NCBI GenBank assembly: GCA_040510135.1
Contig: JBEVJN010000077.1
Coordinates: forward strand, 249 to 64,248
DNA: 64,000 nucleotides
From: Acidimicrobiia bacterium
Lineage (GTDB): Bacteria > Actinomycetota > Acidimicrobiia > Spongiisociales > ZC4RG35
Direction: 5' to 3'
The first letter of the stretch is position 1. Each line of letters starts with the position of its first letter. Below the pieces are notes generated by a model. The model was not told the DNA's origin and made no database searches. It saw only the letters and a program-made list of their open reading frames with translations. Below are positions 41,979-56,428 of this stretch, piece after piece. The translations under genes and the position numbers were made by a program.

Positions 41979-43312
41979 AGCGGCTCGACGTTCTCCGCGG
42001 TGATCCCGAGACGGCGATACACACCTCGCGCGTCGTACACAGCAGGCACCTGGTCGGCGAGGTGTTTGTAGTCGACGTCCGAGTGGTCGGTGAGAACGGC
42101 AGCCAGCTCGAATCGAGATAGATCGTCATCGGGACCGACTGACTCGTAACCAAGTGCCTCGATGCGCCGGGCACCGACCACGGGATCGAGAGCGGCAACT
42201 CGAGCACCTCGCTCCTTGAGGACATCGAGAACCTGAAGGGATGCCGACTCACGATCGTCGGCGATATCCGGCTTGTAGGCGAGGCCGACACCAAGTATCG
42301 GCGTTCCCCTGACGGGAAGCCCGCGACGATTGAGGATCTCCGCTATCCGATCGGCACTGTAGGCCGGCATCTTCGAGTTGACCTGTTCGGCGATATCGAT
42401 GAACCGCGTGGTGAAGTTGGTCTCACGAGCTCGCCAGGCCAGATACTGGGGGTCGAGTGGGATGCAATGCCCTCCCACTCCCGGGCCTGGGTAGAAGGGC
42501 TGGAACCCAAACGGCTTCGTGGCTGCGGCATCGACTACCTCCCACACATCGATGTCCAGTTCATGACACAGCTGGGCAATCTCGTTGATCAACCCGATGT
42601 TCACGGCCCGATAGGTGTTCTCGAGCAGTTTGCTCATCTCGGCCGCCCGCGCCGAGCTGACCCGGTGTACCGAAGGGACCAAACGCCGGTAGGCGGCCTC
42701 GGCTACCTCCCCGGACACGTCAGTGACTCCTCCCACCACCTTGGGGATGTCGGCTGTCTTCATCAGGTCGCCCGGCGATACCCGCTCGGGGGAGAAAGCA
42801 ACCCACACATCCTCGTCGAGAGTGAGTCCCGCAGCAGACACTGCCGGGACCAGATAGTCCTCGGTCGTACCCGGGTAGGTGGTCGACTCCAGACAGATCA
42901 ATTGCCCGGGCCGGACTACCCGGGACACCGTCTCTGCCGCTGCCTCGATGTAGGAGAGGTCGGGCTGACGATTGCGGCCGAGTGGGCTGGGCACGCAGAT
43001 GAAAATGGCGTCGGCCTCGGCGAGGATGTTCTGATCCGAGGAGAACCTGACACCTTCCGCCAGAGCCGTTGCGAGTGTCTCATCGGATACATCGTCGACA
43101 TGTGAACGACCCGCGGCCAGGGCTGCGACCAGCTCACCAGAGACATCGAACCCGATCGAGGGAAGACCACGATTCGCCGCGGTTACGAGCAGCGGCAAAC
43201 CCACATAACCCAGCCCGACGACCCCTGCGGTCCATGGCCGGTTGGTGAAGAAGTCGATCCTGTTTGTCACCGCCGCGATGGTAGGAGGATCAGGAATCCC
43301 ACTCCGCGGCAC
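41975..43312 (-). CDS. UDP-N-acetyl-D-mannosamine/glucosamine 6-dehydrogenase (WecC/WbpA/Cap5O family)
   Basis: GVVGLGYVGLPL Rossmann loop. The catalytic GGHCIPLDPQYL is of the UDP-ManNAc/GlcNAc dehydrogenase type, unlike the GGSCFPKD of Ugd. Confidence 0.85.
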   Translation of the reverse strand: MPRSGIPDPPTIAAVTNRIDFFTNRPWTAGVVGLGYVGLPLLVTAANRGLPSIGFDVSGELVAALAAGRSHVDDVSDETLATALAEGVRFSSDQNILAEADAIFICVPSPLGRNRQPDLSYIEAAAETVSRVVRPGQLICLESTTYPGTTEDYLVPAVSAAGLTLDEDVWVAFSPERVSPGDLMKTADIPKVVGGVTDVSGEVAEAAYRRLVPSVHRVSSARAAEMSKLLENTYRAVNIGLINEIAQLCHELDIDVWEVVDAAATKPFGFQPFYPGPGVGGHCIPLDPQYLAWRARETNFTTRFIDIAEQVNSKMPAYSADRIAEILNRRGLPVRGTPILGVGLAYKPDIADDRESASLQVLDVLKERGARVAALDPVVGARRIEALGYESVGPDDDLSRFELAAVLTDHSDVDYKHLADQVPAVYDARGVYRRLGITAENVEPL

Positions 43313-45119
43313 GCTTGAGGAATGCCGCCATCTGCCCCCGGGTCACATGGTCGCCGGGGCAGAACCTGTCGTTGGTCGGTGGATTGCAGCCGAGGGTTAT
43401 ACCGACCGAGGCGATCTTGTTGATCGCCGGCTGGAACTCTGAGCCGGAGTCGTCGACAAAATGGTCCATCGGGGCGTTGGGTAGGCCGTACGCCCGCGCC
43501 AGGAAGGCCGCCATCTGCCCGCGGGGGATGGGCTGACCACCACAGAACTCATTCGCCCGACACCCGAATGTGATGCCGGACTCGTAGAGACGGTTGGCCG
43601 CGTCTTCGTAGAACTCCCCATCATCATCCGAGAAATGGTCGGCGGTCGGAGCGGCAAGGTTCAGCGCTCTGGAGATGAACACCGCCATTTGACCTCTGGT
43701 CACTTCGTTGTCAGGGCAGAATTTGCTGTTCAGAGGTGGGTTGCAGCCCAGAGTGATCTTCTGCTGCGCCAGCCAGATGATGGCCGCCTCGAACGTGTTG
43801 TTGGCGATGTCGAGGAAAGGCCCCTGGTAGTCGATGCCGCTCACGTAAGGAGACACTCGGACCTCAGCCCCGTCCCGGCGGAAGGCGTTGTCGATCAGGA
43901 AGATCCTCAGCTTCTCCCCCCACAGATTCGCCGTCGGGGTGGAGTCGCCGTTCTTGCCGGTGAACTCGATCACGGCGCCGGGTGGACCGGCGATCTGCCT
44001 GACGTTGGTCACTCTCTCCCACCCGAAGTGGGCGGCGATCCTCGGGGCCGGGACAACCACTGTCCACCTCGCCAGCGGGTTGATCTCTGGATCCGCCGAC
44101 CACTTGTCATCGACCGACCTCAGCCAGGGAAGGGCTGTCCCGCCCCAGACAAACTCAACGTCCTCGCTGGCGCCGCCATTGGAGGAGGAGTAGAAGGCAC
44201 GGGCGATGCGAAGCGCATAGTTGGACTGCGGGTGAATCAGAACGCTCCGGTCGGTGGCCTGGACGGCAGCCACCCATTGGGCGCCGAAGTTGCCCGCGGC
44301 CGGGCTCTCCTTGCCCCATCCGACGTATGCCTGATCGGCGGTGGTGTCTCTCAGGTGACATCCACAGCCCGGGTCTTTTCCAGAGCCATCATTTCCGCCC
44401 CGCAAGACGGCGGTGGCGACCGCATAGCTGCGACCGATGATCGCTTGGGCTTTGAGAGCCTCTGCCGGCCAGGAGGAAGGGACCTCGGCCAGTCCAAATA
44501 GGTAGGCCTCCAGCCCGACCATGGCCACGACGTGGAATCCATTCGCCGAGTCGACGAAGCGGATCTGCCCTCGCGCGTACTGGGTGCCATTGATCGACAC
44601 CCTGCTGGACGGGCTGAGGCCGGTGATGCGGCCGTTGCAAGGCTTGTAACCGGTGTGGCCCCCTCCTTCGCCCTTCTTACGGAATCGACACTGGTTGGGG
44701 TTCGCATCGTCAGCCTCGAACACCCACGACTCGCCCGGGTTGATGGTGGTGTCGGCAAAGGCCGTAGTCGGTGGACACTGCCCCGCCGGCTGACAGAGGG
44801 ACAGGGACCCCCCGACCGCAGTCAGATTGACCGCCGTCGTGTTCTCGATCAGACCTACCCAAAGCGCGTTGGGCTGCCTGGTCCAGTGGCTGCTCGGCAT
44901 CGATTCGACCGACGTGCCGGTGTAGTAGTGCTGAAGGATCTGAGTGGCATCTCGCCCATCCTGGGCTTGACCCAGGGCGCCGAACTGCGACAGCCCGACT
45001 CCGTGGCCCCAACCACCGCCGTCGAATTCCCACTCTTCATCGGCAGCGAGGGCTGGCACCGCCAAGCCCAGGAGCGTCAGGGACGCGACAAAAATAGCGA
45101 TCGTCCTTCGGAGCCTCAC
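43290..45119 (-). CDS. Secreted SpoIID/LytB-domain protein with three C-terminal SLH-like (Cys-variant) repeats
   Basis: Signal peptide, a SpoIID-like region (AQAIIGRSYAV...AFYSSSNGG), then 3x ~55-aa repeats of the shared SLH-like module (for example DHFSDDDGEFYEDAANRLYESGITFGCRANEFCGGQPIPRGQMAAFLARAYGL). Confidence 0.8.
   Translation of the reverse strand: MRLRRTIAIFVASLTLLGLAVPALAADEEWEFDGGGWGHGVGLSQFGALGQAQDGRDATQILQHYYTGTSVESMPSSHWTRQPNALWVGLIENTTAVNLTAVGGSLSLCQPAGQCPPTTAFADTTINPGESWVFEADDANPNQCRFRKKGEGGGHTGYKPCNGRITGLSPSSRVSINGTQYARGQIRFVDSANGFHVVAMVGLEAYLFGLAEVPSSWPAEALKAQAIIGRSYAVATAVLRGGNDGSGKDPGCGCHLRDTTADQAYVGWGKESPAAGNFGAQWVAAVQATDRSVLIHPQSNYALRIARAFYSSSNGGASEDVEFVWGGTALPWLRSVDDKWSADPEINPLARWTVVVPAPRIAAHFGWERVTNVRQIAGPPGAVIEFTGKNGDSTPTANLWGEKLRIFLIDNAFRRDGAEVRVSPYVSGIDYQGPFLDIANNTFEAAIIWLAQQKITLGCNPPLNSKFCPDNEVTRGQMAVFISRALNLAAPTADHFSDDDGEFYEDAANRLYESGITFGCRANEFCGGQPIPRGQMAAFLARAYGLPNAPMDHFVDDSGSEFQPAINKIASVGITLGCNPPTNDRFCPGDHVTRGQMAAFLKRAAEWDS
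43293..43832 (-). repeat. Three tandem SLH-like Cys-variant repeats (protein level) at the C-terminus of the SpoIID-like protein
   Basis: Each copy follows the consensus F.DD.G..F...I..L...GIT.GC.PP.N..FCP...VTR.QMA.FL.RAL. Confidence 0.7.
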
Positions 45120-45163
45120 CTAACGTGAATCGGCCAGTCCTCGGCCACCCTGTAGGGAATCGG

Positions 45164-46858
45164 TCAACCCCCGGTCAGTCGGTAGACGACACCATCGAGG
45201 TAGTCGACGGCGAGCACTTCTCCACTGTTGTTGATCTCGAACGACACGAAGCCCGAACCACCGAGCCAGGAGGTGAGGTCTCGGGGCTCGACGGCCCGCC
45301 CCTCCAGGTAGCGGAACGCGAGGACCCGGCCACTGCCGAAGTCGGCGTAGACGTAGTACTGATCGAGCGACCGGACTGTCGGACCCCTGTAGACCACTCC
45401 CCCGGTGACAGTCCTTCCCACCGATCTTCCGTACTCGGCCACGGGGAATGTGAGCCCGGTACGAGAGCAGCTGGGATCGGTGTCATTGGGATTGCACACG
45501 GTGCCCTCATAGCGGGACCATCCGAAGTCGTAGCCACGCGGGGTCACCGGCACGGCGTCGATCTCCTCACGTGCGCCCTGCCCGACATCGCCGATGAACA
45601 TCAGGTTGCCGTCGAACGACCAGCGGAACGGGTTGCGAAGTCCCGAGGCCCATATCTCGTCACGACCCGACCTTCCGACATACGGGTTGTCGGCGGGGAT
45701 TCTGTAGGGCTGGGCTCCGTCGACATCGATCCGGATCATCTTGCCAAGAAGGGTGTTCACGTCCCGGGCCCGACCGCCGGGATCGTTTCCGCTTCCACCG
45801 TCACCCAGAGAGAGGTAGAGATAGCCGTCGGGGCCAAATGAAAGGAACCCTCCGTTGTGGTTGCTGAACGGCTGGTCCACGGCCAGCACGGTCCGTGGCG
45901 ACGACGCGGTCTGGAGGTTGGCGGCAATGTCGTATTCGACCAGGTAGGTGGTGTGGTCACCACTCCCGCCGGGCTGCAGGGGGCCCGAGTACCAAGCGAA
46001 AAGGCGCCGATCGGCCGGGTAGTTCGGGTGGAGCTCGATCGAGAGGAGGCCGCGCTCGCCGCTGAAAATGACGTTATCGGAGATGTCGAGGAAAACCCCG
46101 GTCACGGCACCACCCTGGGCGATTCGAATGACCCCACCCTGCTCGGCGATCAGAAGGCGGGTCTCCCCCGGCGGGGCGAGAACCTGGATCGGCGCCTCCA
46201 GCCCGTCGACGACCGTGGCCCAGCCGAGGGCGGGCCGTGCCGGCGGTCGGATCGGAGTGAGGCCAAGGGCTCTGGTCAACATCCCGGCTATCTGAGCCCG
46301 GGTGACGCCGTCGTTGGGGCAGAAGCGGTTGTTGGTCGGGGGGTTACAGCCCAGCGTTATGCCACGATCGGCGATGCGGTTGATGGCCCCTTCGAGCACA
46401 TGACCGTTGTCGTCGATGAAATGATTGGTGCTCGAAGAAGGGATGGAGAGCGCTCGAGCGAGGAATCCTGCCGCCTGGGCCCTAGTGACCGTGTTGTCGG
46501 GGCAAAAGCGGTCGTTCGCCGGGGGGTTGCATCCGAGGGTGATCCCCGCTGCGGCCAGTCGGTTGATGGCACCCTCAAGAACATGGCCATCGTCGTCGAT
46601 GAACGCATCTGTGGGCGTGGCAGGGAGAGTCTGCGCCCTCGCGATCATTGCCGCCATCTGCGCCCTGGTCAGCACCCGCTCCGGGCAATACCGATCGTTG
46701 AAGGGAGGGTTACAACCGAAAGTGATGCCTTCATCGGCTATCGCCTCTATCCCTGGCTCGAGGACGTGCCCGTCGTCGTCGGTGAACGTGCCCCCGGGGG
46801 GCAGACCCACCACCTGGAACATGCTCAGGGCCAAGGCAAAGGCAGCCAGATACGTCAT
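45164..46858 (-). CDS. Secreted PQQ-dependent soluble sugar (aldose) dehydrogenase beta-propeller with three N-terminal SLH-like repeats
   Basis: Three SLH-like repeats follow the signal peptide. The C-terminus has the SGDH/YliI-like propeller (SNHNGGFLSFGPDGYLYLSLGDGG...WASGLRNPFRWSFD). Confidence 0.8.
   Translation of the reverse strand: MTYLAAFALALSMFQVVGLPPGGTFTDDDGHVLEPGIEAIADEGITFGCNPPFNDRYCPERVLTRAQMAAMIARAQTLPATPTDAFIDDDGHVLEGAINRLAAAGITLGCNPPANDRFCPDNTVTRAQAAGFLARALSIPSSSTNHFIDDNGHVLEGAINRIADRGITLGCNPPTNNRFCPNDGVTRAQIAGMLTRALGLTPIRPPARPALGWATVVDGLEAPIQVLAPPGETRLLIAEQGGVIRIAQGGAVTGVFLDISDNVIFSGERGLLSIELHPNYPADRRLFAWYSGPLQPGGSGDHTTYLVEYDIAANLQTASSPRTVLAVDQPFSNHNGGFLSFGPDGYLYLSLGDGGSGNDPGGRARDVNTLLGKMIRIDVDGAQPYRIPADNPYVGRSGRDEIWASGLRNPFRWSFDGNLMFIGDVGQGAREEIDAVPVTPRGYDFGWSRYEGTVCNPNDTDPSCSRTGLTFPVAEYGRSVGRTVTGGVVYRGPTVRSLDQYYVYADFGSGRVLAFRYLEGRAVEPRDLTSWLGGSGFVSFEINNSGEVLAVDYLDGVVYRLTGG
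46258..46801 (-). repeat. Three tandem SLH-like Cys-variant repeats at the N-terminus of the PQQ sugar dehydrogenase
   Basis: GITFGCNPPFNDRYCPERVLTRAQMAAMIARAQ, GITLGCNPPANDRFCPDNTVTRAQAAGFLARAL, GITLGCNPPTNNRFCPNDGVTRAQIAGMLTRAL. Confidence 0.7.
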
Positions 46859-46906: not shown

Positions 46907-48661
46907 GTGATCATGCGTATCTCGATGCGCCCCCTCCTAGCCCTCCTAATGATGGTTGGTATGACCCCGGCAGCCGCCCACGCCACCCCCGCCACTCCAA
47001 CGCCCGCGGAGACCATGCAGGTGGCGATTCCGGCCGAAGTCGGCGCGGATCATCCGCTCGTCCAATCCGAGGCCGTGAAAGGGCAGGCAGCCAAGGGCGA
47101 ACAATGGGTCAGTGTCGAGGTCCCGGTCGAGGGGACCCCGGCTGCGACAGTCCGCTCCCTGTCCCGCGAGCTGGGCGTGCAAGTCTGGGAGGATCAGATA
47201 CTCCAGCTTCAGGCACCCGACGACGAGCCTCTGTTCCCCGAGCAATGGCATCACCACAATGTCGGACAGACCGGAGGGGTGACCGATGCAGATATCGACA
47301 CCCCCATAGCCTGGCCTCGGGCACTCGGTGCCGGAGTGGTCGTGGCCGTCATCGATTCCGGCGTGGACGCCACTCACCCCGATCTCTCCCTGCGGATGCA
47401 TCCCACGGCTTGGGATTTCGTGGACAACGATGCTGATGCCAGCCCCGTCGGCACCGGCGGCAACGAGGCGCATGGAACCCGTGTCGCCGGGGTCATCGCC
47501 GCCTCGCTGAATGGCATCGGGGCGGTCGGTGTCGCCCCCGAGGCGAGAATCATGGCCATTCGAGCGTGCGAAGGTGGAGGCTGCCTGACCAGCGACATTG
47601 CCAACGGCATCCACTTCGCCATCGACAACGGCGCAGATGTCATCAACCTGTCCGTTGGTGCGATCGTGTCCTCGGGTGGCATCGTCGAGAGTGCAGTGGC
47701 CAGAGCCGAGTCGCAGAACGTGACCATCGTCGCGGCCGCGGGCAACCAGGGCGTCGATCTCGGCGACTTGCCAATAGGCCAGATCATGGTGCCCGGCGGG
47801 CTGCCTCAATCCAACGTAGTGGCGGTGGCCGCGACAACGAGTCGGGATCAACTCGCCGGATTCAGCAACTACGGCCGGGACATCGTCGATATCGCCGCAC
47901 CCGGCTCGGAGATCGTCACGACGGATCCCGGTGGGGGTTACGTCCTCGGCGACGGGACATCGTTTTCGGCACCGGTGGTGGCAGGTGTGGCCGCTCTCCT
48001 CCTCAGCCAGGATCCGGGGATTGGCCACCAAGAGTTGATCGCCCGAATCAAGGCGTTCGCCGATCGTCCTGGGAATCTGGCTTCGACGGTGGAAACCGGG
48101 CGGGTCAATGCCGGGAGCACATTGACGCGCCGATTCGTCGACACGGCCGGATCGGTTTTTGTTAAGGCGATCGACCATCTGGCCGCGATCAACGTGACGC
48201 AGGGATGTGACCCACCCCAAAACATCCGCTACTGCCCGGACAGCCTCGTTACACGGGGCCAGATGGCGGTGTTTCTCACCCGGGCCTTCGATCTTCCCCA
48301 GACCTCGACCGACTTCTTCGACGACGACGACGGGGCCTTCTACGAGGAGGCCGCCAATCGAATGGCGGCGGCCGGCCTCAGCACGGGGTGCGCTCCTGAC
48401 CGATACTGCGGGACACAACCGATGCCCAGAGGGCAGATGGCCGCCATGCTATATCGCGGTCTGGACCTGGCGCCAGGCCCCGATGTCTTCGTCGACGACG
48501 AAGCCTCAGCCTTCGAGGGGGCGATCAATCGAGTCGCCGCAGCCGGTATCAGCTTCGGTTGCAACCCGCCACAGAACAATCACTTCTGTCCCGGAGATCC
48601 AGTCACCCGAGGCCAAATGGCCGGGTTCATCCGGCGATCCCTCGACCTGATCAACTCCTGA
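46907..48661 (+). CDS. Secreted S8 subtilisin-like serine peptidase with three C-terminal SLH-like repeats
   Basis: Signal peptide, catalytic triad motifs VAVIDSGVD (Asp), HGTRVAGVIAA (His) and GTSFSAPVVAGVAALL (Ser), then 3 SLH-like repeats. Confidence 0.85.
   Translation: MIMRISMRPLLALLMMVGMTPAAAHATPATPTPAETMQVAIPAEVGADHPLVQSEAVKGQAAKGEQWVSVEVPVEGTPAATVRSLSRELGVQVWEDQILQLQAPDDEPLFPEQWHHHNVGQTGGVTDADIDTPIAWPRALGAGVVVAVIDSGVDATHPDLSLRMHPTAWDFVDNDADASPVGTGGNEAHGTRVAGVIAASLNGIGAVGVAPEARIMAIRACEGGGCLTSDIANGIHFAIDNGADVINLSVGAIVSSGGIVESAVARAESQNVTIVAAAGNQGVDLGDLPIGQIMVPGGLPQSNVVAVAATTSRDQLAGFSNYGRDIVDIAAPGSEIVTTDPGGGYVLGDGTSFSAPVVAGVAALLLSQDPGIGHQELIARIKAFADRPGNLASTVETGRVNAGSTLTRRFVDTAGSVFVKAIDHLAAINVTQGCDPPQNIRYCPDSLVTRGQMAVFLTRAFDLPQTSTDFFDDDDGAFYEEAANRMAAAGLSTGCAPDRYCGTQPMPRGQMAAMLYRGLDLAPGPDVFVDDEASAFEGAINRVAAAGISFGCNPPQNNHFCPGDPVTRGQMAGFIRRSLDLINS
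48119..48658 (+). repeat. Three tandem SLH-like Cys-variant repeats at the C-terminus of the S8 peptidase
   Basis: INVTQGCDPPQNIRYCPDSLVTRGQMAVFLTRAF, GLSTGCAPDRYCGTQPMPRGQMAAMLYRGL, GISFGCNPPQNNHFCPGDPVTRGQMAGFIRRSL. Confidence 0.7.
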
Positions 48662-50439: not shown

Positions 50440-52934
50440 CAGAGGGAGTGCAACCGCACAACGTCAACGAGGTTGCTCCCGATCCGACCGGGGCATCCGA
50501 CCTTCGAGTGGCCGTAGTCATCCCCGCCTACAACCGACCGGCGCTCCTTGCTCGGACTCTCACCTCACTGGCGGACCAGACCGACACGTCGGTGTTCGAA
50601 GTTCATGTCGGCGACGACGGGTCAAAGGAGGATATTCGTGGCGTCGTCGAGTCCGTCGAGGGGCTGGACGCCCATTACCACTTTCAATCGCACGACGGTT
50701 TCGGGGCGGGCCGGGCCCGCAATATGGGCGCAGCTCACGCCAACGCCGACGTGCTCCTCTTGCTCGACTCAGACTGCATCGTCCCCCCTGATTTCGTCGA
50801 ACGGCACCGGGCTTGGCACGGGTCGTCCTCGCTGTCGGTGGTGATCGGGGGCCGATCCAACCCCCCCGACCAGACCTCAGGGGAGGCGGAGCACTACCGG
50901 AGCAGATTGCTCCGCAGGTCGGCCGGTCTCCAACACGGCGGCGAGGCGTTTCGGGCGTTCGTCTCCTCGAACGTCTCCATCCGCCTGCCCTTCTTCCGTG
51001 AGCTGGGGGGATTCGATGAGCGTTTTCGCTGGTGGGGAAGCGAGGACACAGAATTGGGCTGGCGGGCCTGGCAGGCCGGCGCCTCTTTCGTGTTCGACCC
51101 AACGCTCGAGATCGAGCACCAACTGGATCAGGACTCGGCCGGTGGACCCGCGGGCAGAAAAGAAGCGCGGAGACTCAACTCCGGACTGATGACGAGTCTC
51201 GTGCCGCACCATTTCTATCGGAAGCAGCCTCCGCCCACGATCCCGGAGAACCCAAAGCTCTCAATTGTCCTGTACGACGTCCCGATCGGTGCCCTGGAAC
51301 CCACTTGGAAATTGTTGGTCGCCCAGCCGCGGACAGACTTCGAGCTGGTCGTGGTCGCCAATCCCGACGATCACGATCCTTTCGCAGGAGCAACCATCGG
51401 CGACCAGCGCATCCGGTTCAGCACCTCGGTCGAAGAAGCGACGTCGTCGTCCGCCAGTGAATACATCTGCTACTTGAACGGCCATGGAGCACCCTCCGAT
51501 GCGCTGTTTCCGGAGATGATCAAGCGGCTCGACCAGCGCCCGGAGTACGTGTCAGCGACGACCGGGTACGCGCTGCCGGCCGATCAGGGTGGGGCCGTGC
51601 GGACCCAGAACGGGGCGGCCACGGTCGACATGGGATGGCAGTCGGACATGCCGCTCTGTTGGTTCATACGGAAACGAGAGACCGCGAAGCTGATGCGGCA
51701 AGGCGCAGGAATCGCGGAGATCTGGCGAACCGCCAAAGAATGGGACCTGAATCGGCATTGGCCATCAGCAGCAGTTCGGCTACCCGGGCTCGAAAGAGCA
51801 GAGCGCCCGGCTGACTTCACCAACGTCTCACCCGACCCGCGTCGGCTGGCCAAGGACCTGGTCAAGAATCCCCGTGACGCGGTGGCCACAACCGCGAGAT
51901 TCGTCGCCGCCAGACGAAACGGGACTACATACGCACCGGTGCCCCAGGCCGCCCGATCCACCACCGTAAGCCCCGAACGCCCTCAGGCCCGCTACGTCGG
52001 ATGGACAGGTAGGTTCAACCTCGGTGACGACATCATGGTCGACTGTGTGCGGGAGCTTCTCGACTGGGCGGACATAGTCGAGTCTGGTGACCCACAGGAT
52101 CTGATCATCCTCGGCGGCGGAACGTTGATCAACCGGCGCACCTACCTGCGCTGGGTATCCGAGCGTGACTCACCCCGCATCGAGCGGGCGACACTGGGGA
52201 CGGGAGTTGCCAGCCCTGACTTCTGGGGTCTGACCGAGGACCCCAAACGGTGGGTTCGCTGGTTGTCGAGTTGCGCCTACGTCGGTGTCCGCGGCCCCCA
52301 ATCCGCGGAAACACTGAGGTCGTGGGGCTACAGGGGCGAGATTGAGGTCTGTGGTGACTCGGCGCTTCTCGTCACCCCGGGCCCCGAGGTCGAACGGAAA
52401 GCCGGTCGAGTGGTCGTCGCTCCGGCTTGGACCAAAGGCGAGCTCTGGGGTGGCTCCGACAGCGATGTAATCGAAGCCCTGGCCGGTGCGATCGAGCGAT
52501 GGAAGCACGACGGCAGAGAGGTGGTGTGCCTTGCCTCCAGCCCCGAGGACGATGGCCAGATTCTCCAGCTGAGCAGGGCGACCGGGGGTGAAGTGCTTCC
52601 ATACCTAGCCGGATATGTGGACAATCAGGCAGCGATCGACCTGATCGGCTCCGCCGAGGTTGTCGTCGGCGAGCGGCTCCACGCTTGCATCCTGGCGGCC
52701 GCGGTGTCGACGCCATTCATCGGCATCGAGTACCGCCCCAAACTGAAGGATTTCGCCGAGTCGGTGGATCGCGGAGATCTCGTGGTCCGCACCGACACCC
52801 TGTCCGGTGAGTCGATCGTCGAACTCGCGGCCGAAGCGACGAGCCGCGGCACGGAAGCGGCCGACTTGCGCGTTGCCGTCTATCGCGATCGCCTGCGGCA
52901 GGCATCGGCCTCCCTGCAGAAGGCCTTGCGCTGA
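50436..52934 (+). CDS. Tri-domain fusion: GT2 + GT2 + polysaccharide pyruvyl transferase (CsaB/WcaK/EpsO family, PF04230-like)
   Basis: Domain 1 VAVVIPAYNRPALLARTL...DSDC (GT2). Domain 2 LSIVLYDVPIGALEPTWK... (second GT-A). The C-terminal ~330 aa reads YVGWTGRFNLGDDIMV...ILGGGTLIN...YVGVRGPQSAETL...CGDSALLV...VVGERLHACILAAAVSTPFIGIEYRPK. This is the G..G.FN.GD / ILGGG / VRG..S pyruvyltransferase pattern. Confidence 0.65.
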   Translation: MTEGVQPHNVNEVAPDPTGASDLRVAVVIPAYNRPALLARTLTSLADQTDTSVFEVHVGDDGSKEDIRGVVESVEGLDAHYHFQSHDGFGAGRARNMGAAHANADVLLLLDSDCIVPPDFVERHRAWHGSSSLSVVIGGRSNPPDQTSGEAEHYRSRLLRRSAGLQHGGEAFRAFVSSNVSIRLPFFRELGGFDERFRWWGSEDTELGWRAWQAGASFVFDPTLEIEHQLDQDSAGGPAGRKEARRLNSGLMTSLVPHHFYRKQPPPTIPENPKLSIVLYDVPIGALEPTWKLLVAQPRTDFELVVVANPDDHDPFAGATIGDQRIRFSTSVEEATSSSASEYICYLNGHGAPSDALFPEMIKRLDQRPEYVSATTGYALPADQGGAVRTQNGAATVDMGWQSDMPLCWFIRKRETAKLMRQGAGIAEIWRTAKEWDLNRHWPSAAVRLPGLERAERPADFTNVSPDPRRLAKDLVKNPRDAVATTARFVAARRNGTTYAPVPQAARSTTVSPERPQARYVGWTGRFNLGDDIMVDCVRELLDWADIVESGDPQDLIILGGGTLINRRTYLRWVSERDSPRIERATLGTGVASPDFWGLTEDPKRWVRWLSSCAYVGVRGPQSAETLRSWGYRGEIEVCGDSALLVTPGPEVERKAGRVVVAPAWTKGELWGGSDSDVIEALAGAIERWKHDGREVVCLASSPEDDGQILQLSRATGGEVLPYLAGYVDNQAAIDLIGSAEVVVGERLHACILAAAVSTPFIGIEYRPKLKDFAESVDRGDLVVRTDTLSGESIVELAAEATSRGTEAADLRVAVYRDRLRQASASLQKALR

Positions 52935-52948: not shown

Positions 52949-54358
52949 CTGCGCATTCTCCTCGTCACCAGCAATGGTTGGGGGCTGGGGCATCTGACCC
53001 GCCAGCTCGCAATCGCCCTCGCCATTGGCGATCGGGCGGAGACGACCATGTTCTCCCTCTCCCCCGGATTTCCCCTCGCCATGGACTTTGGGGTCAGGGG
53101 TGAGTACTGCCCGAGCTTCACGACACAGTTCATCGTGCGAAAGGAATGGGACAACTATCTCCAGGACCGGCTGGCGGCTTTCGCCGATGAAGTGCGGCCC
53201 GACGTGATGTTGTTCGACGGTGTCGCGCCATATTCCGGGTTCATGCGGGCCATCGCTCAGCTACCCGACTGCGTCGTGGGCTGGCTGCGTCGTGGCATGT
53301 GGCGCGAGGGATCCAACGAGCATCAGCTTCAGAAAACAGCCGGGTTCGACTTCGTGATCGAGCCCACCGATCTAGCGTCGGACGTCGACACGGGCGCCAC
53401 CATCGGCGCCGAGGCGCTGCGGGTGCCGCCAATCAGCCTGCTAGAGGTGATGGACCAACTCGATCGGGAGACCGCGGCGCGTGAGCTCGGCATCGACCCG
53501 CATCGCCCGACACTTCTGTTGACTCTGGGCTCGGGCCGGCTAGGTGATGTAGCCGGGCCTGGCTCTACCGCCCTCGATGTGGCCCTGGGTGACACGGACT
53601 GGCAGGTGGCTGTGACCAATTCCCCGGTCGCGGTGAATTTGGTCCCCTTGGTCGAGGATTCACGGGTGATCGAGATCAAAGGGGTGTACCCGCTGCTCCG
53701 CTACTTCAAAGCGTTCGATGCCACGGTGAGTGCCGCCGGATACAACTCGGTGCATGAGCTGGTCCCGGCAGGGGTTCCCACCCTGCTCATCCCCAATACC
53801 TCGAGCAAGACCGACAACCAAGAGGGACGCGCTCAATACCTGGCCGACCTCGGTGTCGCCCTGTCTGCCCGTGACGACGATCTGAGGGCGGTCGCGAGAG
53901 AAACCGCGCGCCTCCTCGACCCGGCGGTTCGGGCCGAGCTGATCGATAACCACCAGACGAGCGGAGTCGCCGACCGCGTCGGCGGCGCCAAAGCAGTCGC
54001 TTCCGAGCTCTTGAAGCCTCCGCAACCCTCGGGACGGGAGCGGGCGCAGACCCATTGGGACGCGCCGCTATCGAGTCGAATCGCCGGAGCGCTTCTCGGT
54101 GAGAAAGGGAAAGCCACGGTCAAGCGGCTGCTTGGCCGCACCGTTCCCGACTACACGACCGAACGACGCCGGGTCCGCCTCGGTGATAAGGAAGCCACAC
54201 CGGAGCGCGGGATCCTGCGCCTGTTGGTCACTAGCGAGCGTGACCGGATCGATCCACGTGCCGCCTATCCGATCGAGCATGTACTGAAGGGGTCAACACC
54301 GGGCTACCGACAACGCCGCATGGAGATAGTCGAGAAGTATTACGAGGTGCTCGAATAG
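52949..54358 (+). CDS. MurG-like/GT28-type GT-B UDP-glycosyltransferase. Its conserved N-terminus lies upstream of the first ATG (53048), so the likely start is CTG at 52949.
   Basis: In frame upstream of the ATG at 53048 the sequence encodes RILLVTSNGWGLGHLTRQLAIALAIGDRAETT. This is the canonical GT-B N-terminal glycine loop. The C-terminal AGYNSVHELVPAGVPTLLIPN is of MurG/Glyco_tran_28_C type. There is no ATG/GTG/TTG in frame between the upstream stop (52808-52810) and 53048. Confidence 0.55.
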   Translation: MRILLVTSNGWGLGHLTRQLAIALAIGDRAETTMFSLSPGFPLAMDFGVRGEYCPSFTTQFIVRKEWDNYLQDRLAAFADEVRPDVMLFDGVAPYSGFMRAIAQLPDCVVGWLRRGMWREGSNEHQLQKTAGFDFVIEPTDLASDVDTGATIGAEALRVPPISLLEVMDQLDRETAARELGIDPHRPTLLLTLGSGRLGDVAGPGSTALDVALGDTDWQVAVTNSPVAVNLVPLVEDSRVIEIKGVYPLLRYFKAFDATVSAAGYNSVHELVPAGVPTLLIPNTSSKTDNQEGRAQYLADLGVALSARDDDLRAVARETARLLDPAVRAELIDNHQTSGVADRVGGAKAVASELLKPPQPSGRERAQTHWDAPLSSRIAGALLGEKGKATVKRLLGRTVPDYTTERRRVRLGDKEATPERGILRLLVTSERDRIDPRAAYPIEHVLKGSTPGYRQRRMEIVEKYYEVLE

Positions 54359-54362: not shown

Positions 54363-55457
54363 CTACGGCATGGCCCGGACAAAGAAGGTGGCCATCTGTG
54401 ACCGCTTCAGCGGCATGTCCGGACAGAAGTTGGTATTGGCGGGTGGATTGCACCCCATTGTGACGCCATGGGCGGCGAGGGCATTGATCGAGTCTTCGAA
54501 CCGGTTGCCCTCATCGTCGACGAAGTAGTTAGTGGCTGTCGGGTTGTCGTAGCCGAAAGCCCGAACCAGCAACTCCGCCATCTCGTGGCGAAGGAGCGAA
54601 ACACTGGGACAGAACTCGGTCTTCGTGCAACCGAACCCGATTCCAGCCGCCTCGATCGCACGGATCGCCGGCTCGAACTTGTTGCCGGCGACGTCGGTAT
54701 ACGGGATATCCCCGCCCTCGGGCAAATCGAGAGCGCGAGCGATGAATGCTGCCATCTGCCCGCGCGTAATCTGATCTTCGGGGCAGAACATGTTGTTGAG
54801 CGGCGGGTTGCATCCGAGTGTGATCCCGCGTTGCGCGATGATCTCGATGTTTTTCTCGTGGACGTTGCCGTCGTCATCGCGGAAACGCCCATCCCAGCCA
54901 CCAGCCGCGTTGACCAGGTACGGGTAGGCATCGATCGCTGTCCCGTTCTTGCGCAATTCGAAATGCAGGTGTGGGACCGTCTCCGCCGCATTCCCGGAGT
55001 CACCGGCCCAGCCGATGACCTGACCACGCTTGACCGCGACGCCTTCGACGAGGCCCGCGGCAATCCCCCATCCCTCGCCGTCGGTGTTGTCGATGTAGTT
55101 CCCGGCGGCGTCCTTCTTGTCGTCATTCAGATGGATGTAGCGCGTGACCCATCCGCCGCCATGGTCGATACCCACATAGCAACAGTCCGAAGGCCCCGAG
55201 CTGATCCAGCTGATGGTGCCGTCGGCTACGGCGAGGACTGGCACACCTTTGGCCGTCATGATGTCGACGCCCTCGTGGGTCCTGGAGCACCCAGATCCTC
55301 GGCAATCGCCGAAACTGTCGGTCAGCCGATACTCCCCGTCGAGGGGGAAGGTCATGGCACTTGGATCAAAGGGTGCTGCAAGAGCGGGCGCGGTCGTAGG
55401 CAGCAAAGACCCGAAGGCCAACACGAGCCCCGCTAACAAACGCGTCGAAAACTTCAC
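54363..55457 (-). CDS. Secreted M23-family peptidoglycan endopeptidase with three C-terminal SLH-like repeats (GTG start)
   Basis: Signal peptide, M23 motifs (HEGVDI...HLHFE), then 3 SLH-like repeats (GITLGCNPPLNNMFCPEDQITRGQMAAFIARAL...). Confidence 0.85.
   Translation of the reverse strand: MKFSTRLLAGLVLAFGSLLPTTAPALAAPFDPSAMTFPLDGEYRLTDSFGDCRGSGCSRTHEGVDIMTAKGVPVLAVADGTISWISSGPSDCCYVGIDHGGGWVTRYIHLNDDKKDAAGNYIDNTDGEGWGIAAGLVEGVAVKRGQVIGWAGDSGNAAETVPHLHFELRKNGTAIDAYPYLVNAAGGWDGRFRDDDGNVHEKNIEIIAQRGITLGCNPPLNNMFCPEDQITRGQMAAFIARALDLPEGGDIPYTDVAGNKFEPAIRAIEAAGIGFGCTKTEFCPSVSLLRHEMAELLVRAFGYDNPTATNYFVDDEGNRFEDSINALAAHGVTMGCNPPANTNFCPDMPLKRSQMATFFVRAMP
54366..54905 (-). repeat. Three tandem SLH-like Cys-variant repeats at the C-terminus of the M23 peptidase
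   Basis: Same consensus as in the other four proteins. Confidence 0.7.
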
Positions 55458-55705
55458 GCCGAACCGGTATCGGCGCTCCTACCCGGACTCTTGAATCTTC
55501 GGAAGACGGACCTCCCATCGCGCTCTTTGCCAATATCGCCAACGGCGCGTACGGGTAGACCCATGCCTTCCTCCTCTGTAGAGCCGGCGGCGACGGTACC
55601 CCGTGTGCCCCCGATTCAAACATCGGACTCTGACCGACCTAGGGCGTTGGAGCTTCAGTACGCTCGTCCAACCGGTCAACTCGGCCGAGAGTCAGGGGGA
55701 TAGTC

Positions 55706-56428
55706 TTGAGAAAGTCCACCATTCTCGCTGTGGTCGTCGCCGTCCTGATGGCTGTGCCGCTCACGCTGTACGCGTCACATCAATTTCAGGACGTCCCTGA
55801 CTCTCACACGTTCCATACCGCGATCGACTTCATGGCTGCCAACGGGATCACTCAAGGGTGCAACCCGCCGGCCAACACCAACTACTGCCCCGAAGATCCA
55901 GTCACGCGGAGTCAGATGGCCGGCTTCTTGAAGCGTTTCCATGACACCTTTATCGCCGGCAGTGGAACCGGGCTTGGTGCTGCCGTTCGTCCCCAGAGTG
56001 CACCCCCTGATCCTGGCAATGGTGTCGTCGATGACCTGACTTTGAATCTCCACGTTCCGCAGGCGGGCGTCCTCGTGGTCACAGGGAGCCTGCAAATGGC
56101 GAACTTCTCGGAATTGGATGCGTTCTCTTGTGGCATCAACTTCGGCTCCGCACCCAGCACCGCTAAGAGCGATTCCTGGCGTGATATCGACCTGACGGCT
56201 AGTTTCCTCGCCTCATGCGATACGATCACCGCTATCGAGGTGGGGCCAGGAACTCAACCTGTTCGGCTTGTGATTTCGGGCGCAGCACCAACCACTGAGG
56301 CTCTGCAAGGTGGTATGACGGCGGTCCTGTACACGTTCGGAGGGTCTTTTGGCCTCCTCGGCACAGCCACCGATGCCACCGAGGCACGGTCTTTGAGCGA
56401 CATCCCGAAGAGCGCCGCCGCCGGATAG
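55706..56428 (+). CDS. Secreted protein with a single N-terminal SLH-like repeat and a C-terminal domain of unknown function
   Basis: Signal/TM (ILAVVVAVLMAVPLTLYA), then FQDVPDSHTFHTAIDFMAANGITQGCNPPANTNYCPEDPVTRSQMAGFLKRF (one SLH-like copy), then an ~150-aa Gly/Ala/Thr-rich domain. Confidence 0.6.
   Translation: MRKSTILAVVVAVLMAVPLTLYASHQFQDVPDSHTFHTAIDFMAANGITQGCNPPANTNYCPEDPVTRSQMAGFLKRFHDTFIAGSGTGLGAAVRPQSAPPDPGNGVVDDLTLNLHVPQAGVLVVTGSLQMANFSELDAFSCGINFGSAPSTAKSDSWRDIDLTASFLASCDTITAIEVGPGTQPVRLVISGAAPTTEALQGGMTAVLYTFGGSFGLLGTATDATEARSLSDIPKSAAAG

What the first reader, a model, noticed from the sequence alone, without database searches (positions are those of the whole stretch)
43290..56428. 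Candidate SCWP-pyruvylation plus SLH-like anchoring system in an actinobacterium
Within ~13 kb, five secreted proteins carry 13 copies of one ~55-aa repeat (F.DD.G..F...I..L...GIT.GC.PP.N..FCP...VTR.QMA.FL.RAL). The five are a SpoIID/LytB-like protein, a PQQ sugar dehydrogenase, an S8 subtilase, an M23 endopeptidase and a small protein. The repeat matches the S-layer-homology (SLH) topology. That topology has F-D, a helix and G-I, a second conserved stretch and ITRxExAxxLxRA. Here the usual GY.DGTFRP stretch is replaced by a conserved Cys pair (GC...FCP), possibly a disulfide. SLH domains bind pyruvylated secondary cell wall polymer, and the pyruvyl ketal is installed by CsaB. This cluster contains a CsaB/PF04230-like pyruvyltransferase domain fused to two GT2 domains (50436..52934). 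Next to it are a MurG-like GT, a CgeB-like GT and, upstream, a UDP-ManNAc/GlcNAc 6-dehydrogenase and a Wzx/WbaP polysaccharide locus. Together they form a coherent wall-polymer synthesis, pyruvylation and SLH-anchoring module tethering peptidoglycan-remodelling enzymes. I am not aware of this Cys-bearing SLH variant being described.
Basis: partly seen in the sequence, partly recalled or inferred. Interest (0 to 1): 0.85.

Follow-up and report, generated by a model that had tools for sequence, protein, structure and literature searches.

The report
Cysteine-stapled SLH wall anchors with pyruvyltransferase
An Acidimicrobiia (actinobacterial) cell-wall locus encodes five exported proteins carrying a two-cysteine variant of the known S-layer-homology wall-anchoring domain, in the same operons as a three-domain sugar-transferase/pyruvyltransferase, so it is a lineage-specific version of a well-known anchoring system, not a new kind.

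Summary
Exactly 13 copies of a ~57-aa repeat, each with two invariant Cys, lie in five ORFs between 43.3 and 56.4 kb and nowhere else in the window.

The repeat is an SLH domain.
- Pfam SLH passes its cutoff in 4 of 5 proteins.
- A family profile hits B. anthracis Sap SLH at 2e-16.
- An AlphaFold model of one triple (pLDDT 96.7) matches only SLH trimers (Sap, SpaA; TM 0.7-0.83).
- The pyruvate-binding Gly and Arg are invariant. The stacking Trp is not kept.

ORF 50436-52934 has three domains: a K4CP-A1-like GT2, a degenerate GT-A domain, and a PF04230 pyruvyltransferase with the PEP-binding RLH motif. It is not a CsaB equivalog (86 vs 213 bits).

Eight of nine loci carrying a full-length homologue of this enzyme (identity down to 36%) have Cys-SLH proteins within 10 kb.

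The two Cys are present together or absent together (467 both, 7 neither), which fits a disulfide. I could not measure the Cys-Cys distance.

Novelty is moderate. These proteins are already auto-annotated as SLH, and SLH/CsaB in some Actinobacteria is published. The Cys-stapled subfamily (about 5,700 clusters at 50% identity) and the fused enzyme appear undescribed. Ligand and wall association remain untested.

The parts
43290..45119 (-). Protein A (609 aa): signal peptide, SpoIID/LytB domain, C-terminal triple Cys-SLH module (aa 433-609 = nt 43293-43823)
   Evidence: Pfam SpoIID 4.8e-15 and SLH 29.5 bits. TIGR02669 SpoIID_LytB 5.5e-41. 3 repeat-HMM hits. The stop overlaps the start of the downstream dehydrogenase gene by 23 nt.
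45164..46858 (-). Protein B (564 aa): N-terminal triple Cys-SLH module (aa 23-202 = nt 46253-46792), then a glucose/sorbosone dehydrogenase-type beta-propeller
   Evidence: Pfam GSDH 3.4e-33 and SLH 33.8 bits. AF2 model of aa 23-202: pLDDT 96.7, pTM 0.90. Foldseek top hits are Sap and SpaA SLH.
46907..48661 (+). Protein C (584 aa): signal peptide, subtilase S8 (mycosin-like), C-terminal triple Cys-SLH module (aa 408-583 = nt 48128-48655)
   Evidence: Pfam Peptidase_S8 3.3e-51 and SLH 23.7 bits. 3 repeat-HMM hits. Lies 23 nt upstream of D on the same strand.
48685..50439 (+). Protein D (584 aa): CgeB-like glycosyltransferase (Glyco_trans_1_2). Its stop overlaps the start of E by 4 nt.
   Evidence: Pfam PF13524 1.7e-17. 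A D-like gene lies directly upstream of the E homologue in every locus examined.
50436..52934 (+). Protein E (832 aa), three domains: GT2 related to the GalNAc-transferase (A1) domain of chondroitin polymerase K4CP (aa ~24-262); a degenerate GT-A domain lacking DxD (aa ~270-480); a PF04230 pyruvyltransferase (aa ~515-832) with invariant E746-R747-L748-H749
   Evidence: Pfam GT2 3e-28 and PS_pyruv_trans 1e-22. TIGR03609 CsaB 85.9 bits, below the 213.1 cutoff. Family profile vs PDB: K4CP 7e-65, and SpsA on the middle domain 4.5e-8. Pvg1p 2.5e-6 with RLH aligned. AF2 pLDDT 87.8, with Foldseek hits to Pvg1p and to GT-A proteins. The ~830-aa architecture is conserved in about 110 of the 120 listed homologues.
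53048..54358 (+). Protein F (436 aa): GT-B glycosyltransferase with a MurG-like C-terminal domain
   Evidence: Pfam Glyco_tran_28_C 1e-07, 32.5 bits vs cutoff 22. Syntenic in L001, L085 and L089.
54363..55457 (-). Protein G (364 aa): signal peptide, M23 metalloendopeptidase, C-terminal triple Cys-SLH module (aa 190-364 = nt 54366-54890)
   Evidence: Pfam Peptidase_M23 8.8e-20 and SLH 32.7 bits. 3 repeat-HMM hits. M23-SLH is syntenic in L001, L085, L086, L089 and L090.
55706..56428 (+). Protein H (240 aa): signal peptide, a single Cys-SLH repeat (aa 26-83 = nt 55781-55954), then a ~150-aa domain with no family hit
   Evidence: Repeat HMM 94.2 bits. Pfam SLH 17.1 bits, below cutoff. C-terminal part has no Pfam hit. 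Four tandem single-repeat paralogues occur in L090.
41975..43312 (-). Nucleotide-sugar dehydrogenase of the UDP-ManNAc/UDP-GlcNAc dehydrogenase clade, co-directional with B and A
   Evidence: Pfam UDPG_MGDP_dh N, central and C domains. TIGR03026 362 bits. Best equivalog-type hits are UDP-ManNAc dehydrogenases (241 and 233 bits), below their cutoffs. Syntenic in L001, L085, L086 and L087.
40869..41978 (-). GT4 glycosyltransferase. Its start overlaps the stop of the dehydrogenase gene by 4 nt.
   Evidence: Pfam Glyco_trans_1_4 and Glycos_transf_1. Syntenic in L001, L085, L086 and L087.
17140..18411 (-). LCP (LytR-CpsA-Psr) glycopolymer-to-peptidoglycan ligase. Candidate for attaching the wall polymer; lies outside the finding's coordinates and the link is inferred.
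   Evidence: Pfam LytR_cpsA_psr 1.3e-44. TIGR00350 139.7 bits vs cutoff 62.3.

Best explanation
This is an Acidimicrobiia version of the SLH / pyruvylated wall-polymer anchoring system.

Shown here:
- The 13 repeats are SLH domains. Tandem triples fold into the SLH three-prong spindle.
- They keep the two residues that hold the pyruvate carboxylate in SpaA and Sap: the last Gly of the GIxxG motif (SLH-Gly29) and the Arg of TRAE (SLH-Arg43).
- In place of the canonical G-x-D-G-x-F-x-P hairpin they have G-C-(N-P-P-x-N-x-x-F)-C-P. The two Cys bracket a loop of 5-8 residues.

Inferred:
- The two Cys form a disulfide that staples this enlarged loop after export.
- Protein E adds a HexNAc with its K4CP-A1-like GT2 domain and then pyruvylates the lipid-linked glycan from PEP with its C-terminal PF04230 domain. 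This would be an 'add-and-cap' enzyme doing on one polypeptide what TagA plus CsaB do separately in Paenibacillus.
- D, F, the GT4 and the UDP-HexNAc-type dehydrogenase build the rest of an anionic polymer, which an LCP ligase attaches to peptidoglycan.
- The SLH triples then hold a SpoIID/LytB lytic enzyme, an M23 endopeptidase, an S8 protease, a PQQ-type sugar dehydrogenase and a small protein non-covalently on that polymer.
For: SLH identity.
- Pfam PF00395 is above cutoff in A, B, C and G.
- NF033190 (three SLH domains of a Bacillus NEAT-LRR protein) aligns over the whole triple.
- The family profile hits Sap at 1.9e-16, SbsB at 4e-13 and SpaA at 1e-4, with all three repeats in register.
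- AF2 pLDDT is 96.7. The 15 best PDB matches are all Sap or SpaA SLH trimers, at TM 0.65-0.83.

Ligand residues. G26 and R43 of the repeat are invariant in 13/13 window copies and 98-99% conserved in 363 homologous repeats. Their roles in SpaA are described in PMC6081394.

Cys pair.
- 99% conserved.
- In 476 repeats of 142 representative proteins: 467 have both, 7 have neither (all with a canonical-length loop), and 2 have one (a fragment and a probable frameshift).
- 74/74 repeats in the first 11 fetched loci and 27/27 in three more loci have exactly two Cys, even with divergent loops.
- All five window proteins have even Cys counts.

Enzyme E.
- PF04230 1e-22.
- CsaB is the only pyruvyltransferase NCBIfam model hit.
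- The invariant ERLH aligns with Pvg1p R337/L338/H339, the modelled PEP contacts.
- The N-terminal domain hits K4CP A1 at 7e-65. A1 adds GalNAc (PMC2889854).

Genetic linkage.
- B-A-dehydrogenase-GT4 run co-directionally, with 23-nt and 4-nt overlaps. C-D-E-F run co-directionally, with a 23-nt gap and a 4-nt overlap.
- 8 of 9 loci with a full-length E homologue (89% down to 36% identity) carry 1-9 Cys-SLH proteins within 10 kb.
- An LCP ligase is present in the window.
Against: - E scores far below the CsaB equivalog cutoff (85.9 vs 213.1 bits).
- PF04230 enzymes also pyruvylate capsules and exopolysaccharides that have nothing to do with SLH.
- No TagA/WecG-type ManNAc transferase and no UDP-GlcNAc 2-epimerase was found in the window. 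The canonical 4,6-Pyr-beta-D-ManNAc epitope is therefore not supported.
- The neighbouring dehydrogenase would make a 6-carboxy sugar, which cannot carry a 4,6-ketal.
- The stacking Trp (SLH-Trp13) is replaced by V/I with an adjacent F/Y/H/L.
- One E-homologue locus (L088, 34% identity, 12.7-kb contig) has no SLH gene.
- Cys-SLH genes also occur far from any pyruvyltransferase (L002-L004). That is expected for SLH cargo, but it shows linkage is not obligatory.
- The Cys-Cys distance could not be read from the model because no coordinates are returned.
- There is no experimental evidence for secretion, wall binding or pyruvate in any Acidimicrobiia wall.
Confidence: 0.7

Rival explanations
1. 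The repeats are true SLH domains, but they bind something other than a pyruvylated polymer, for example peptidoglycan itself or an unpyruvylated uronic-acid (teichuronic-type) polymer. Protein E and its neighbours would then make a capsule or exopolysaccharide unrelated to anchoring. The co-location would only reflect a large cell-envelope gene region.
For: - Negativicutes OmpM SLH domains bind polyamine-modified peptidoglycan rather than pyruvylated polymer (discussed in bioRxiv 10.1101/2021.05.31.446380).
- SLH-Trp13 is not conserved here.
- The window carries two nucleotide-sugar dehydrogenases, a sulfotransferase and many glycosyltransferases, consistent with a separate anionic polysaccharide.
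- E is not a CsaB equivalog.
- L088 has E without SLH genes.
Against: - The Gly and Arg that contact the pyruvate carboxylate are invariant.
- SLH genes are interleaved with the polymer genes inside apparent operons, with overlapping stop and start codons, not merely nearby.
- This interleaving persists down to 36-39% identity of E.
Confidence: 0.2
2. The two conserved Cys per repeat are not a structural disulfide. They would be functional thiols, either a metal site or a redox-switchable pair that regulates ligand binding or release of the tethered hydrolases.
For: - The both-or-neither pattern fits any paired function, not only a disulfide.
- The first Cys sits immediately after SLH-Gly29, whose backbone flip gates ligand binding in SpaA (PMC6081394). 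Its state could therefore affect binding.
Against: - Two thiols alone make a poor metal site.
- The domains are extracytoplasmic, and all five proteins have even Cys counts, the usual signature of exported disulfide-bonded proteins.
- The loop between the Cys varies from 5 to 8 residues while the Cys stay, as expected for a staple.
Confidence: 0.08
3. The match to SLH is convergent or spurious, and the repeat is an unrelated wall- or protein-binding repeat.
For: Single repeats score only near or below the Pfam cutoff (best E 1.4e-4, e.g. 19 bits vs 20.8). Protein H falls below the cutoff.
Against: - Profile-to-sequence E 1.9e-16 to Sap across three repeats in register.
- The high-confidence model matches SLH trimers exclusively.
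- 82 of 94 family representatives hit PF00395 at E<=1e-5.
Confidence: 0.02

Closest known systems
Paenibacillus alvei SCWP locus (csaB, tagA, tagO, spaA, slhA) and the SpaA SLH trimer (PDB 6CWC, 6CWF, 7SV3)
   Same: - Triple SLH module with the same fold (TM 0.70-0.74).
- Conserved SLH-Gly29 and SLH-Arg43. A TRAQ-type motif occurs naturally in SpaA SLH3 and is the rule here (TRGQ/TRAQ).
- SLH-protein genes are clustered with a PF04230 pyruvyltransferase and polymer glycosyltransferases (PMC6801904).
   Different: - Here the G-x-D-G-x-F-x-P hairpin is replaced by a longer Cys-bracketed loop.
- SLH-Trp13 is absent.
- The pyruvyltransferase is fused to two GT-A domains and is not a CsaB equivalog.
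- No tagA or tagO type genes. Initiation is probably by a WbaP-type Bac_transf.
- The cargo is wall-remodelling enzymes rather than an S-layer protein.
Bacillus anthracis Sap/EA1/BSL proteins with CsaB (PDB 3PYW, 6BT4)
   Same: - Best structural and sequence match (TM 0.76-0.83, profile E 1.9e-16).
- Many different enzymes, including peptidoglycan hydrolases, are tethered through the same triple SLH module.
   Different: - Firmicute proteins lack Cys in the SLH domain.
- CsaB is a stand-alone enzyme acting on terminal ManNAc.
- Sequence identity to the present module is only about 22%.
E. coli K4 chondroitin polymerase K4CP/KfoC (PDB 2Z86, 2Z87)
   Same: - The N-terminal GT2 of E aligns with the K4CP A1 (GalNAc-transferase) domain over about 270 residues (domain E 2e-53).
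- The alignment runs on into the start of the K4CP A2 domain, so the two-GT-A layout is shared.
   Different: - The second GT-A domain of E has lost the DxD motif ('NGH' in E; family consensus FLxGHxA).
- A pyruvyltransferase domain is appended.
- Polymerase activity is therefore doubtful.
Yeast pyruvyltransferase Pvg1p (PDB 5AX7), the only pyruvyltransferase among the PDB matches
   Same: GT-B-like fold match (E 8e-7). Shared N-terminal G-x-x-x-N-x-G-D motif and C-terminal (D/E)-R-L-H-A motif, which contains the modelled PEP contacts.
   Different: Very low identity (about 16%). Pvg1p acts on Gal of N-glycans in the Golgi.

Membership tests
SLH domain (Pfam PF00395 / PROSITE PS51272) | Profile match above the curated threshold | tested here: met
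   Whole-protein scores are 29.5, 33.8, 23.7 and 32.7 bits against a cutoff of 20.8 for A, B, C and G. H scores 17.1, below cutoff. Single repeats are marginal: 10/13 at E<=1. 82/94 family representatives hit at E<=1e-5.
SLH domain (Pfam PF00395 / PROSITE PS51272) | Three tandem domains form a pseudo-threefold 'three-prong spindle' (six helices with a central three-helix bundle) | tested here: met
   In silico only. AF2 pLDDT 96.7 and pTM 0.90, six helices. Foldseek top 15 are all Sap or SpaA SLH, TM 0.65-0.83.
SLH domain (Pfam PF00395 / PROSITE PS51272) | GIxxG motif ending in SLH-Gly29, and the Arg of the TRAE motif (SLH-Arg43), which bind the pyruvate carboxylate | tested here: met
   G26 and R43 of the repeat are invariant in 13/13 copies. 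In 363 homologous repeats the figures are 99% and 98%. The motif reads T-R-(G/A)-Q rather than TRAE.
SLH domain (Pfam PF00395 / PROSITE PS51272) | Conserved SLH-Trp13 that stacks on the ManNAc ring | tested here: not met
   No Trp at this position. The aligned position is V/I. The next residue is F 60%, H 21%, L 11%.
SLH domain (Pfam PF00395 / PROSITE PS51272) | Non-covalent binding to pyruvylated secondary cell-wall polymer | not testable with these tools
   Needs binding assays with sacculi or synthetic ligands.
CsaB (NCBIfam TIGR03609, equivalog) | Score above the equivalog cutoff | tested here: not met
   85.9 bits against a cutoff of 213.1. Only model positions 122-290 of 301 are matched.
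CsaB (NCBIfam TIGR03609, equivalog) | Stand-alone enzyme partnered with a TagA-type ManNAc transferase that supplies the acceptor | tested here: not met
   The domain is fused to GT2 plus a GT-A-like domain. No PF03808/TagA or 2-epimerase hit in any scanned ORF of the window. The rest of the genome was not seen.
Polysaccharide pyruvyl transferase (Pfam PF04230) | Profile match above the gathering score | tested here: met
   81.8 bits against 25.3, E 1e-22, residues 528-766.
Polysaccharide pyruvyl transferase (Pfam PF04230) | PEP-contacting R-L-H motif (Pvg1p R337/L338/H339) and a GT-B-like fold | tested here: met
   E746-R747-L748-H749 is invariant in 35 homologues and aligns with Pvg1p DRLH. 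The Foldseek hit to 5AX7 has E 8e-7. The role of these residues is taken from PMC6801904.
Polysaccharide pyruvyl transferase (Pfam PF04230) | PEP-dependent ketal pyruvylation of a lipid-linked sugar | not testable with these tools
   Needs an enzyme assay.
Bifunctional GT2 glycosaminoglycan polymerase (K4CP/pmCS type) | Two active GT-A domains, each with a DxD motif | tested here: not met
   The A1-like domain is present with DSD (LLLDSDCIV) and matches K4CP at 7e-65. The second domain has a GT-A fold (SpsA 4.5e-8; Foldseek), but its DxD is replaced by NGH (family consensus FLxGHxA).

The most novel reading that the evidence does not exclude
The Cys-stapled SLH module, together with the fused GT2/GT-A/pyruvyltransferase, would be the main protein-to-wall anchoring system of the whole class Acidimicrobiia, which is abundant in ocean, soil and sediment.

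In this reading it has diverged in ligand. The enlarged disulfide-closed loop and the loss of the stacking Trp would adapt the groove to a pyruvylated sugar other than beta-D-ManNAc, or to a pyruvate/uronate epitope. That epitope would be installed as a chain cap by a single add-and-cap enzyme. Anchoring might also be redox-sensitive.
Probability: 0.3. Interest if true: 0.65.

Novelty: new variant of a known kind. Interest (0 to 1): 0.45.

Why it matters
SLH/pyruvylated-polymer anchoring has been worked out only in Firmicutes, Thermus/Deinococcus and cyanobacteria. Almost nothing is known about the cell envelope of Acidimicrobiia, a mostly uncultured class.

The data give a concrete and testable model.
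- It names a defined ligand-binding module that is large as a family: about 5,700 clusters at 50% identity with E<=1e-30.
- It names a candidate enzyme that both adds and pyruvylates the ligand sugar.
- It names the set of wall-remodelling enzymes that are tethered.

The Cys pair is a natural experiment on the loop next to the ligand-gating Gly of SLH domains. The module could also serve as an affinity probe for Acidimicrobiia cell walls.

This does not overturn any concept. It extends a known mechanism to a new lineage, with two structural novelties.

Tried and rejected
1. Cys-Cys distance. I used the both-or-neither pattern of the Cys pair instead.
2. Single-sequence phmmer of the E C-terminal 352 aa against the PDB found nothing. 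Only profiles (A3, A7) reached Pvg1p.
Only L005 and L006 (plus L011 in Armatimonadetes, and L007 without the pyruvyltransferase) were informative. No genome-wide co-occurrence statistics could be made.
4. 29349-30611 and 38551-39993 remain unassigned membrane proteins.
5. Literature searches for SLH plus Acidimicrobiia, and for SLH plus disulfide/cysteine, returned nothing relevant. This is absence within an open-access library only.
6. I considered and rejected that the repeat is a chance or compositional feature. Per-repeat HMM E-values are 1e-21 to 1e-30 and there are no hits elsewhere in the window.
7. I considered that E might be a true chondroitin-type polymerase. I rejected this because the second GT-A domain lacks DxD.
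8. One cluster member is labelled 'Myxococcota bacterium' and one E homologue 'Acidobacteria bacterium'. Both sit on short MAG contigs. I treat them as possible mis-binning and not as evidence for a wider taxonomic range.

Full report
OBSERVATION

The region 43290-56428 contains eight real genes, judged by GC3 well above GC2. Five of them carry a ~57-aa repeat. A regex scan, a manual extraction and an HMM built from the copies and run against the six-frame translation of all 64 kb agree. There are exactly 13 copies, with per-copy i-E between 1e-21 and 1e-30, and none outside this region.

| Protein | Coordinates | Catalytic domain | Repeats |
|---|---|---|---|
| A | 43290-45119(-) | SpoIID/LytB | 3, C-terminal |
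| B | 45164-46858(-) | GSDH-type propeller | 3, N-terminal |
| C | 46907-48661(+) | Peptidase_S8 | 3, C-terminal |
| G | 54363-55457(-) | Peptidase_M23 | 3, C-terminal |
| H | 55706-56428(+) | none (~150-aa unassigned domain) | 1 |

Seven columns are invariant across the 13 copies: D5, G26, C27, C36, R43, A47 and R52. The middle repeat of A, C and G has a Cys loop three residues shorter. A, C, G and H begin with classical-looking Sec signal peptides. B's N-terminus is hydrophobic but has no basic residue. No signal-peptide predictor was available.

WHAT THE REPEAT IS

- Pfam PF00395 passes its gathering score for A, B, C and G (23.7-33.8 bits vs 20.8) and falls just short for the single-repeat protein H (17.1).
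- Scanned one at a time, 10 of 13 repeats hit SLH at E<=1, but only marginally (best 1.4e-4). The Pfam model only just recognises this variant.
- NCBIfam NF033190, whose C-terminus is the three-SLH module of a Bacillus NEAT-LRR protein, aligns over whole triples.
- A profile of 50 homologous triples hits B. anthracis Sap at 1.9e-16, SbsB at 4e-13 and P. alvei SpaA at 1e-4, with all three repeats in register.
- An AlphaFold2 model of B residues 23-202 is very confident (pLDDT 96.7, pTM 0.90, six helices).
- By Foldseek against the PDB, its 15 best matches are all Sap or SpaA SLH trimers (TM 0.65-0.83, E 1e-8 to 2e-5). The next hit has E 0.14.

HOW IT DIFFERS FROM CANONICAL SLH

In the Sap alignment, canonical '...KG-ND---KGMFEP-GKELTRAE' corresponds to '...KG-CNPPANDRFCP-DDSVTRGQ'.
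- The first Cys directly follows the last Gly of the GIxxG motif (SLH-Gly29).
- The second Cys lies between the conserved aromatic residue and the Pro.
- The loop is 3-4 residues longer than in Sap.

Blackler et al. (PMC6081394) showed that three residues make the 4,6-Pyr-beta-D-ManNAc pocket in SpaA: SLH-Gly29, SLH-Arg43 and SLH-Trp13. The Gly and Arg are invariant in the window and 99% and 98% conserved in 363 homologous repeats. The Trp is not kept. The aligned position is V/I, followed by F, H or L. The motif T-R-(G/A)-Q replaces TRAE. TRAQ already occurs in SpaA SLH3.

THE CYS PAIR

- Both Cys are 99% conserved in 363 repeats from 120 close homologues.
- In 476 repeats from 142 cluster representatives, 467 have both and 7 have neither. 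Those 7 come from two proteins (P0329, P0250), and in all of them the loop has shrunk back to canonical length. Two repeats have one Cys: a truncated fragment and an apparent frameshift.
- All 74 full-length repeats found in the first 11 fetched loci, and all 27 in three further loci, have exactly two Cys. This holds even where the loop is only 5 residues long and otherwise unrelated.
- The five window proteins have 12, 8, 8, 10 and 4 Cys.

This is the pattern expected of a structural disulfide in exported proteins. From my own knowledge, not tested here, Actinobacteria are known to use exported disulfides widely, unlike Firmicutes. The direct test, the S-S distance in the model, could not be run because coordinates are not returned.

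THE PYRUVYLTRANSFERASE GENE

ORF E (50436-52934, 832 aa) has three domains.
- Residues ~24-262 are a GT2 domain (Pfam 3e-28). At profile level this domain matches the A1 domain of E. coli K4 chondroitin polymerase at 7e-65. The alignment continues into the first strand of the K4CP A2 domain. A1 is the GalNAc-adding site (PMC2889854).
- Residues ~270-480 have no Pfam hit. They fold as GT-A, with Foldseek hits to SpsA, TarP, K4CP and 6P61 and a profile hit to SpsA at 4.5e-8. The DxD motif is replaced by N-G-H (family consensus FLxGHxA), so the domain is probably catalytically degenerate.
- Residues ~515-832 are PF04230 (1e-22). They have a GT-B-like fold that matches yeast Pvg1p. An invariant E746-R747-L748-H749 aligns with Pvg1p D-R337-L338-H339, the modelled PEP contacts.

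CsaB (TIGR03609) is the only pyruvyltransferase NCBIfam model hit. The score of 85.9 bits is far below the 213.1-bit equivalog cutoff. E is therefore a pyruvyltransferase and not a CsaB orthologue.

The ~830-aa fusion is conserved in about 110 of the 120 listed homologues, down to 34% identity. Where a source gives a name, it is Acidimicrobiia.

LINKAGE OF SLH PROTEINS TO THE POLYMER GENES

Within the window the SLH genes lie inside the biosynthetic operons.
- B, A, the UDP-HexNAc-type dehydrogenase and a GT4 run co-directionally. A overlaps the dehydrogenase gene by 23 nt, and the dehydrogenase overlaps the GT4 by 4 nt.
- C, D, E and F run co-directionally. C-D are separated by 23 nt, and D and E overlap by 4 nt.

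Across other assemblies I examined nine loci that carry a full-length E homologue.

| Locus | Identity of E homologue | Cys-SLH proteins within 10 kb |
|---|---|---|
| L001 | close relative (83-89% range; not fixed) | yes |
| L085 | 49% | yes |
| L006 | 45% | yes |
| L090 | 45% | yes (9 proteins) |
| L005 | 40% | yes |
| L086 | 39% | yes |
| L089 | 38% | yes |
| L087 | 36% | yes |
| L088 | 34% | none (12.7-kb contig) |

Eight of the nine carry between 1 and 9 Cys-SLH proteins. These are usually the same SpoIID-SLH, GSDH-SLH and M23-SLH genes, together with the D-like GT, the dehydrogenase and a GT4. A D-like gene is always adjacent to E.

Cys-SLH genes also occur elsewhere without a pyruvyltransferase nearby (L002-L004), as expected for dispersed SLH cargo.

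The window also holds an LCP glycopolymer-to-peptidoglycan ligase, a WbaP-type initiating transferase, a UDP-glucose dehydrogenase, dTDP-rhamnose genes, a sulfotransferase and a GT-C enzyme. No TagA, no 2-epimerase and no Wzx were detected.

SIZE AND RANGE OF THE FAMILY

- The word-indexed search found 1,676 proteins at E<=1e-3. Almost all of the best 120 were already tagged PF00395. Where named, they are called 'S-layer homology domain-containing protein [Acidimicrobiia bacterium]'.
- The exhaustive profile search over 1.84 billion cluster representatives gave 5,669 proteins at E<=1e-30, 41,581 at 1e-10 and 108,574 at 1e-3. The weaker tiers will include canonical SLH proteins.
- Cargo domains in 94 representatives include beta-helix, Ig-like, trypsin, VanY, amidase_2, S8, metallophosphatase and GSDH domains. 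This is a typical SLH-anchored exoproteome.

MECHANISM

Shown:
- SLH identity and fold.
- Retention of the pyruvate-binding Gly and Arg.
- A PF04230 domain with the PEP motif.
- Operonic and syntenic linkage.

Inferred:
- E adds a HexNAc and pyruvylates the lipid-linked glycan.
- The polymer is exported and ligated to peptidoglycan by an LCP enzyme.
- After Sec export the Cys pairs oxidise and staple the enlarged loop beside the ligand groove.
- The triples then tether lytic and proteolytic enzymes to the pyruvylated polymer.

The identity of the pyruvylated sugar is open. The absence of ManNAc-pathway genes in the window, the loss of the stacking Trp and the altered loop all allow a ligand different from 4,6-Pyr-beta-D-ManNAc.

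COMPARISON WITH WHAT IS KNOWN, AND NOVELTY

The system works like the Paenibacillus and Bacillus SLH/CsaB systems. It passes the SLH and PF04230 membership tests. It fails the CsaB-equivalog test and the Trp13 feature.

SLH domains in Actinobacteria are noted in PMC6081394 (33 species) and PMC6030368. The retention of SLH/CsaB in 'a few examples within Actinobacteria' is stated in bioRxiv 10.1101/2021.05.31.446380.

I found no paper that mentions SLH in Acidimicrobiia, a Cys-bearing SLH variant, or a GT-fused SCWP pyruvyltransferase. These searches cover an open-access library only.

My verdict is a real, coherent and well-supported finding that is a new variant of a known kind. I score its interest at 0.45.

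Noticed in passing
window 50505-51221 (E aa ~24-262) and 51243-51875 (aa ~270-480): The N-terminal GT2 of the pyruvyltransferase fusion is a strong homologue of the GalNAc-transferase (A1) domain of E. coli K4 chondroitin polymerase (profile E 7e-65). It is followed, where the K4CP A2 domain would be, by a GT-A domain that has lost its DxD motif. This suggests descent from a glycosaminoglycan-type two-domain polymerase.
   Followed up: partly
window 43509-43577, 48374-48442, 54576-54644 (middle repeats of A, C, G): In the three C-terminal triple modules the middle repeat always has a Cys loop three residues shorter (GC-x5-C) and a less canonical motif (PRGQ / LRHE). In B's N-terminal triple all three repeats are full length. 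This looks like position-specific specialisation of the three grooves, as in SpaA.
   Followed up: no
window 55706-56428 (H); L090 15860-20103: H is a small protein with one Cys-SLH repeat plus an unassigned ~150-aa domain. A related locus has four such single-repeat genes in tandem. Single-SLH proteins would have to trimerise to form a binding module. They could be a structural surface component.
   Followed up: partly
P0329 and P0250 (representatives): These are rare family members in which all repeats have lost both Cys together and the loop has reverted to canonical SLH length (e.g. GTGPNTFSP, GDANGDYNP). They would be useful natural controls for the role of the Cys pair.
   Followed up: partly
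window 57079-58053 (-): A sulfotransferase gene (Sulfotransfer_3, 7.8e-27; weak NoeE similarity) sits just downstream of the SLH cluster, next to a methyltransferase and a GT-C (PMT_2) enzyme. It hints at a sulfated glycan, which is unusual for a bacterial wall locus.
   Followed up: no
window 17140-18411 (-) and 15832-17106 (-): An LCP-family glycopolymer-to-peptidoglycan ligase lies next to a TuaD-like UDP-glucose 6-dehydrogenase. Together with the second (UDP-HexNAc-type) dehydrogenase, this suggests a uronic-acid-containing wall polymer.
   Followed up: partly
window 6675-9011 (-), 29349-30611 (-), 38551-39993 (+), 33359-34045 (-): Four sizeable ORFs with coding-type GC3 have no Pfam or NCBIfam hit even at E<=1. 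38551-39993 is clearly a polytopic membrane protein. These are candidates for the missing flippase or polymerase.
   Followed up: partly
L090 20152-21731: In one syntenic locus an ABC-2 type transporter pair (ABC2_membrane plus ABC_tran) lies about 8 kb from the E homologue. This would fit an ABC-transporter-dependent pathway in which terminal pyruvylation caps the chain. No such pair was found in the window.
   Followed up: no
L011 (Armatimonadetes MAG, chromosome OY970296.1) 10001-13406: This is a distant full-length match (29% identity, residues 15-824) to the GT2/pyruvyltransferase fusion outside Actinomycetota. No Cys-SLH repeat occurs within 10 kb.
   Followed up: no
window 14202-15808 (+): F420 biosynthesis genes cofD and cofE are embedded among the cell-envelope genes. 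This is consistent with an actinobacterial origin of the window.
   Followed up: no
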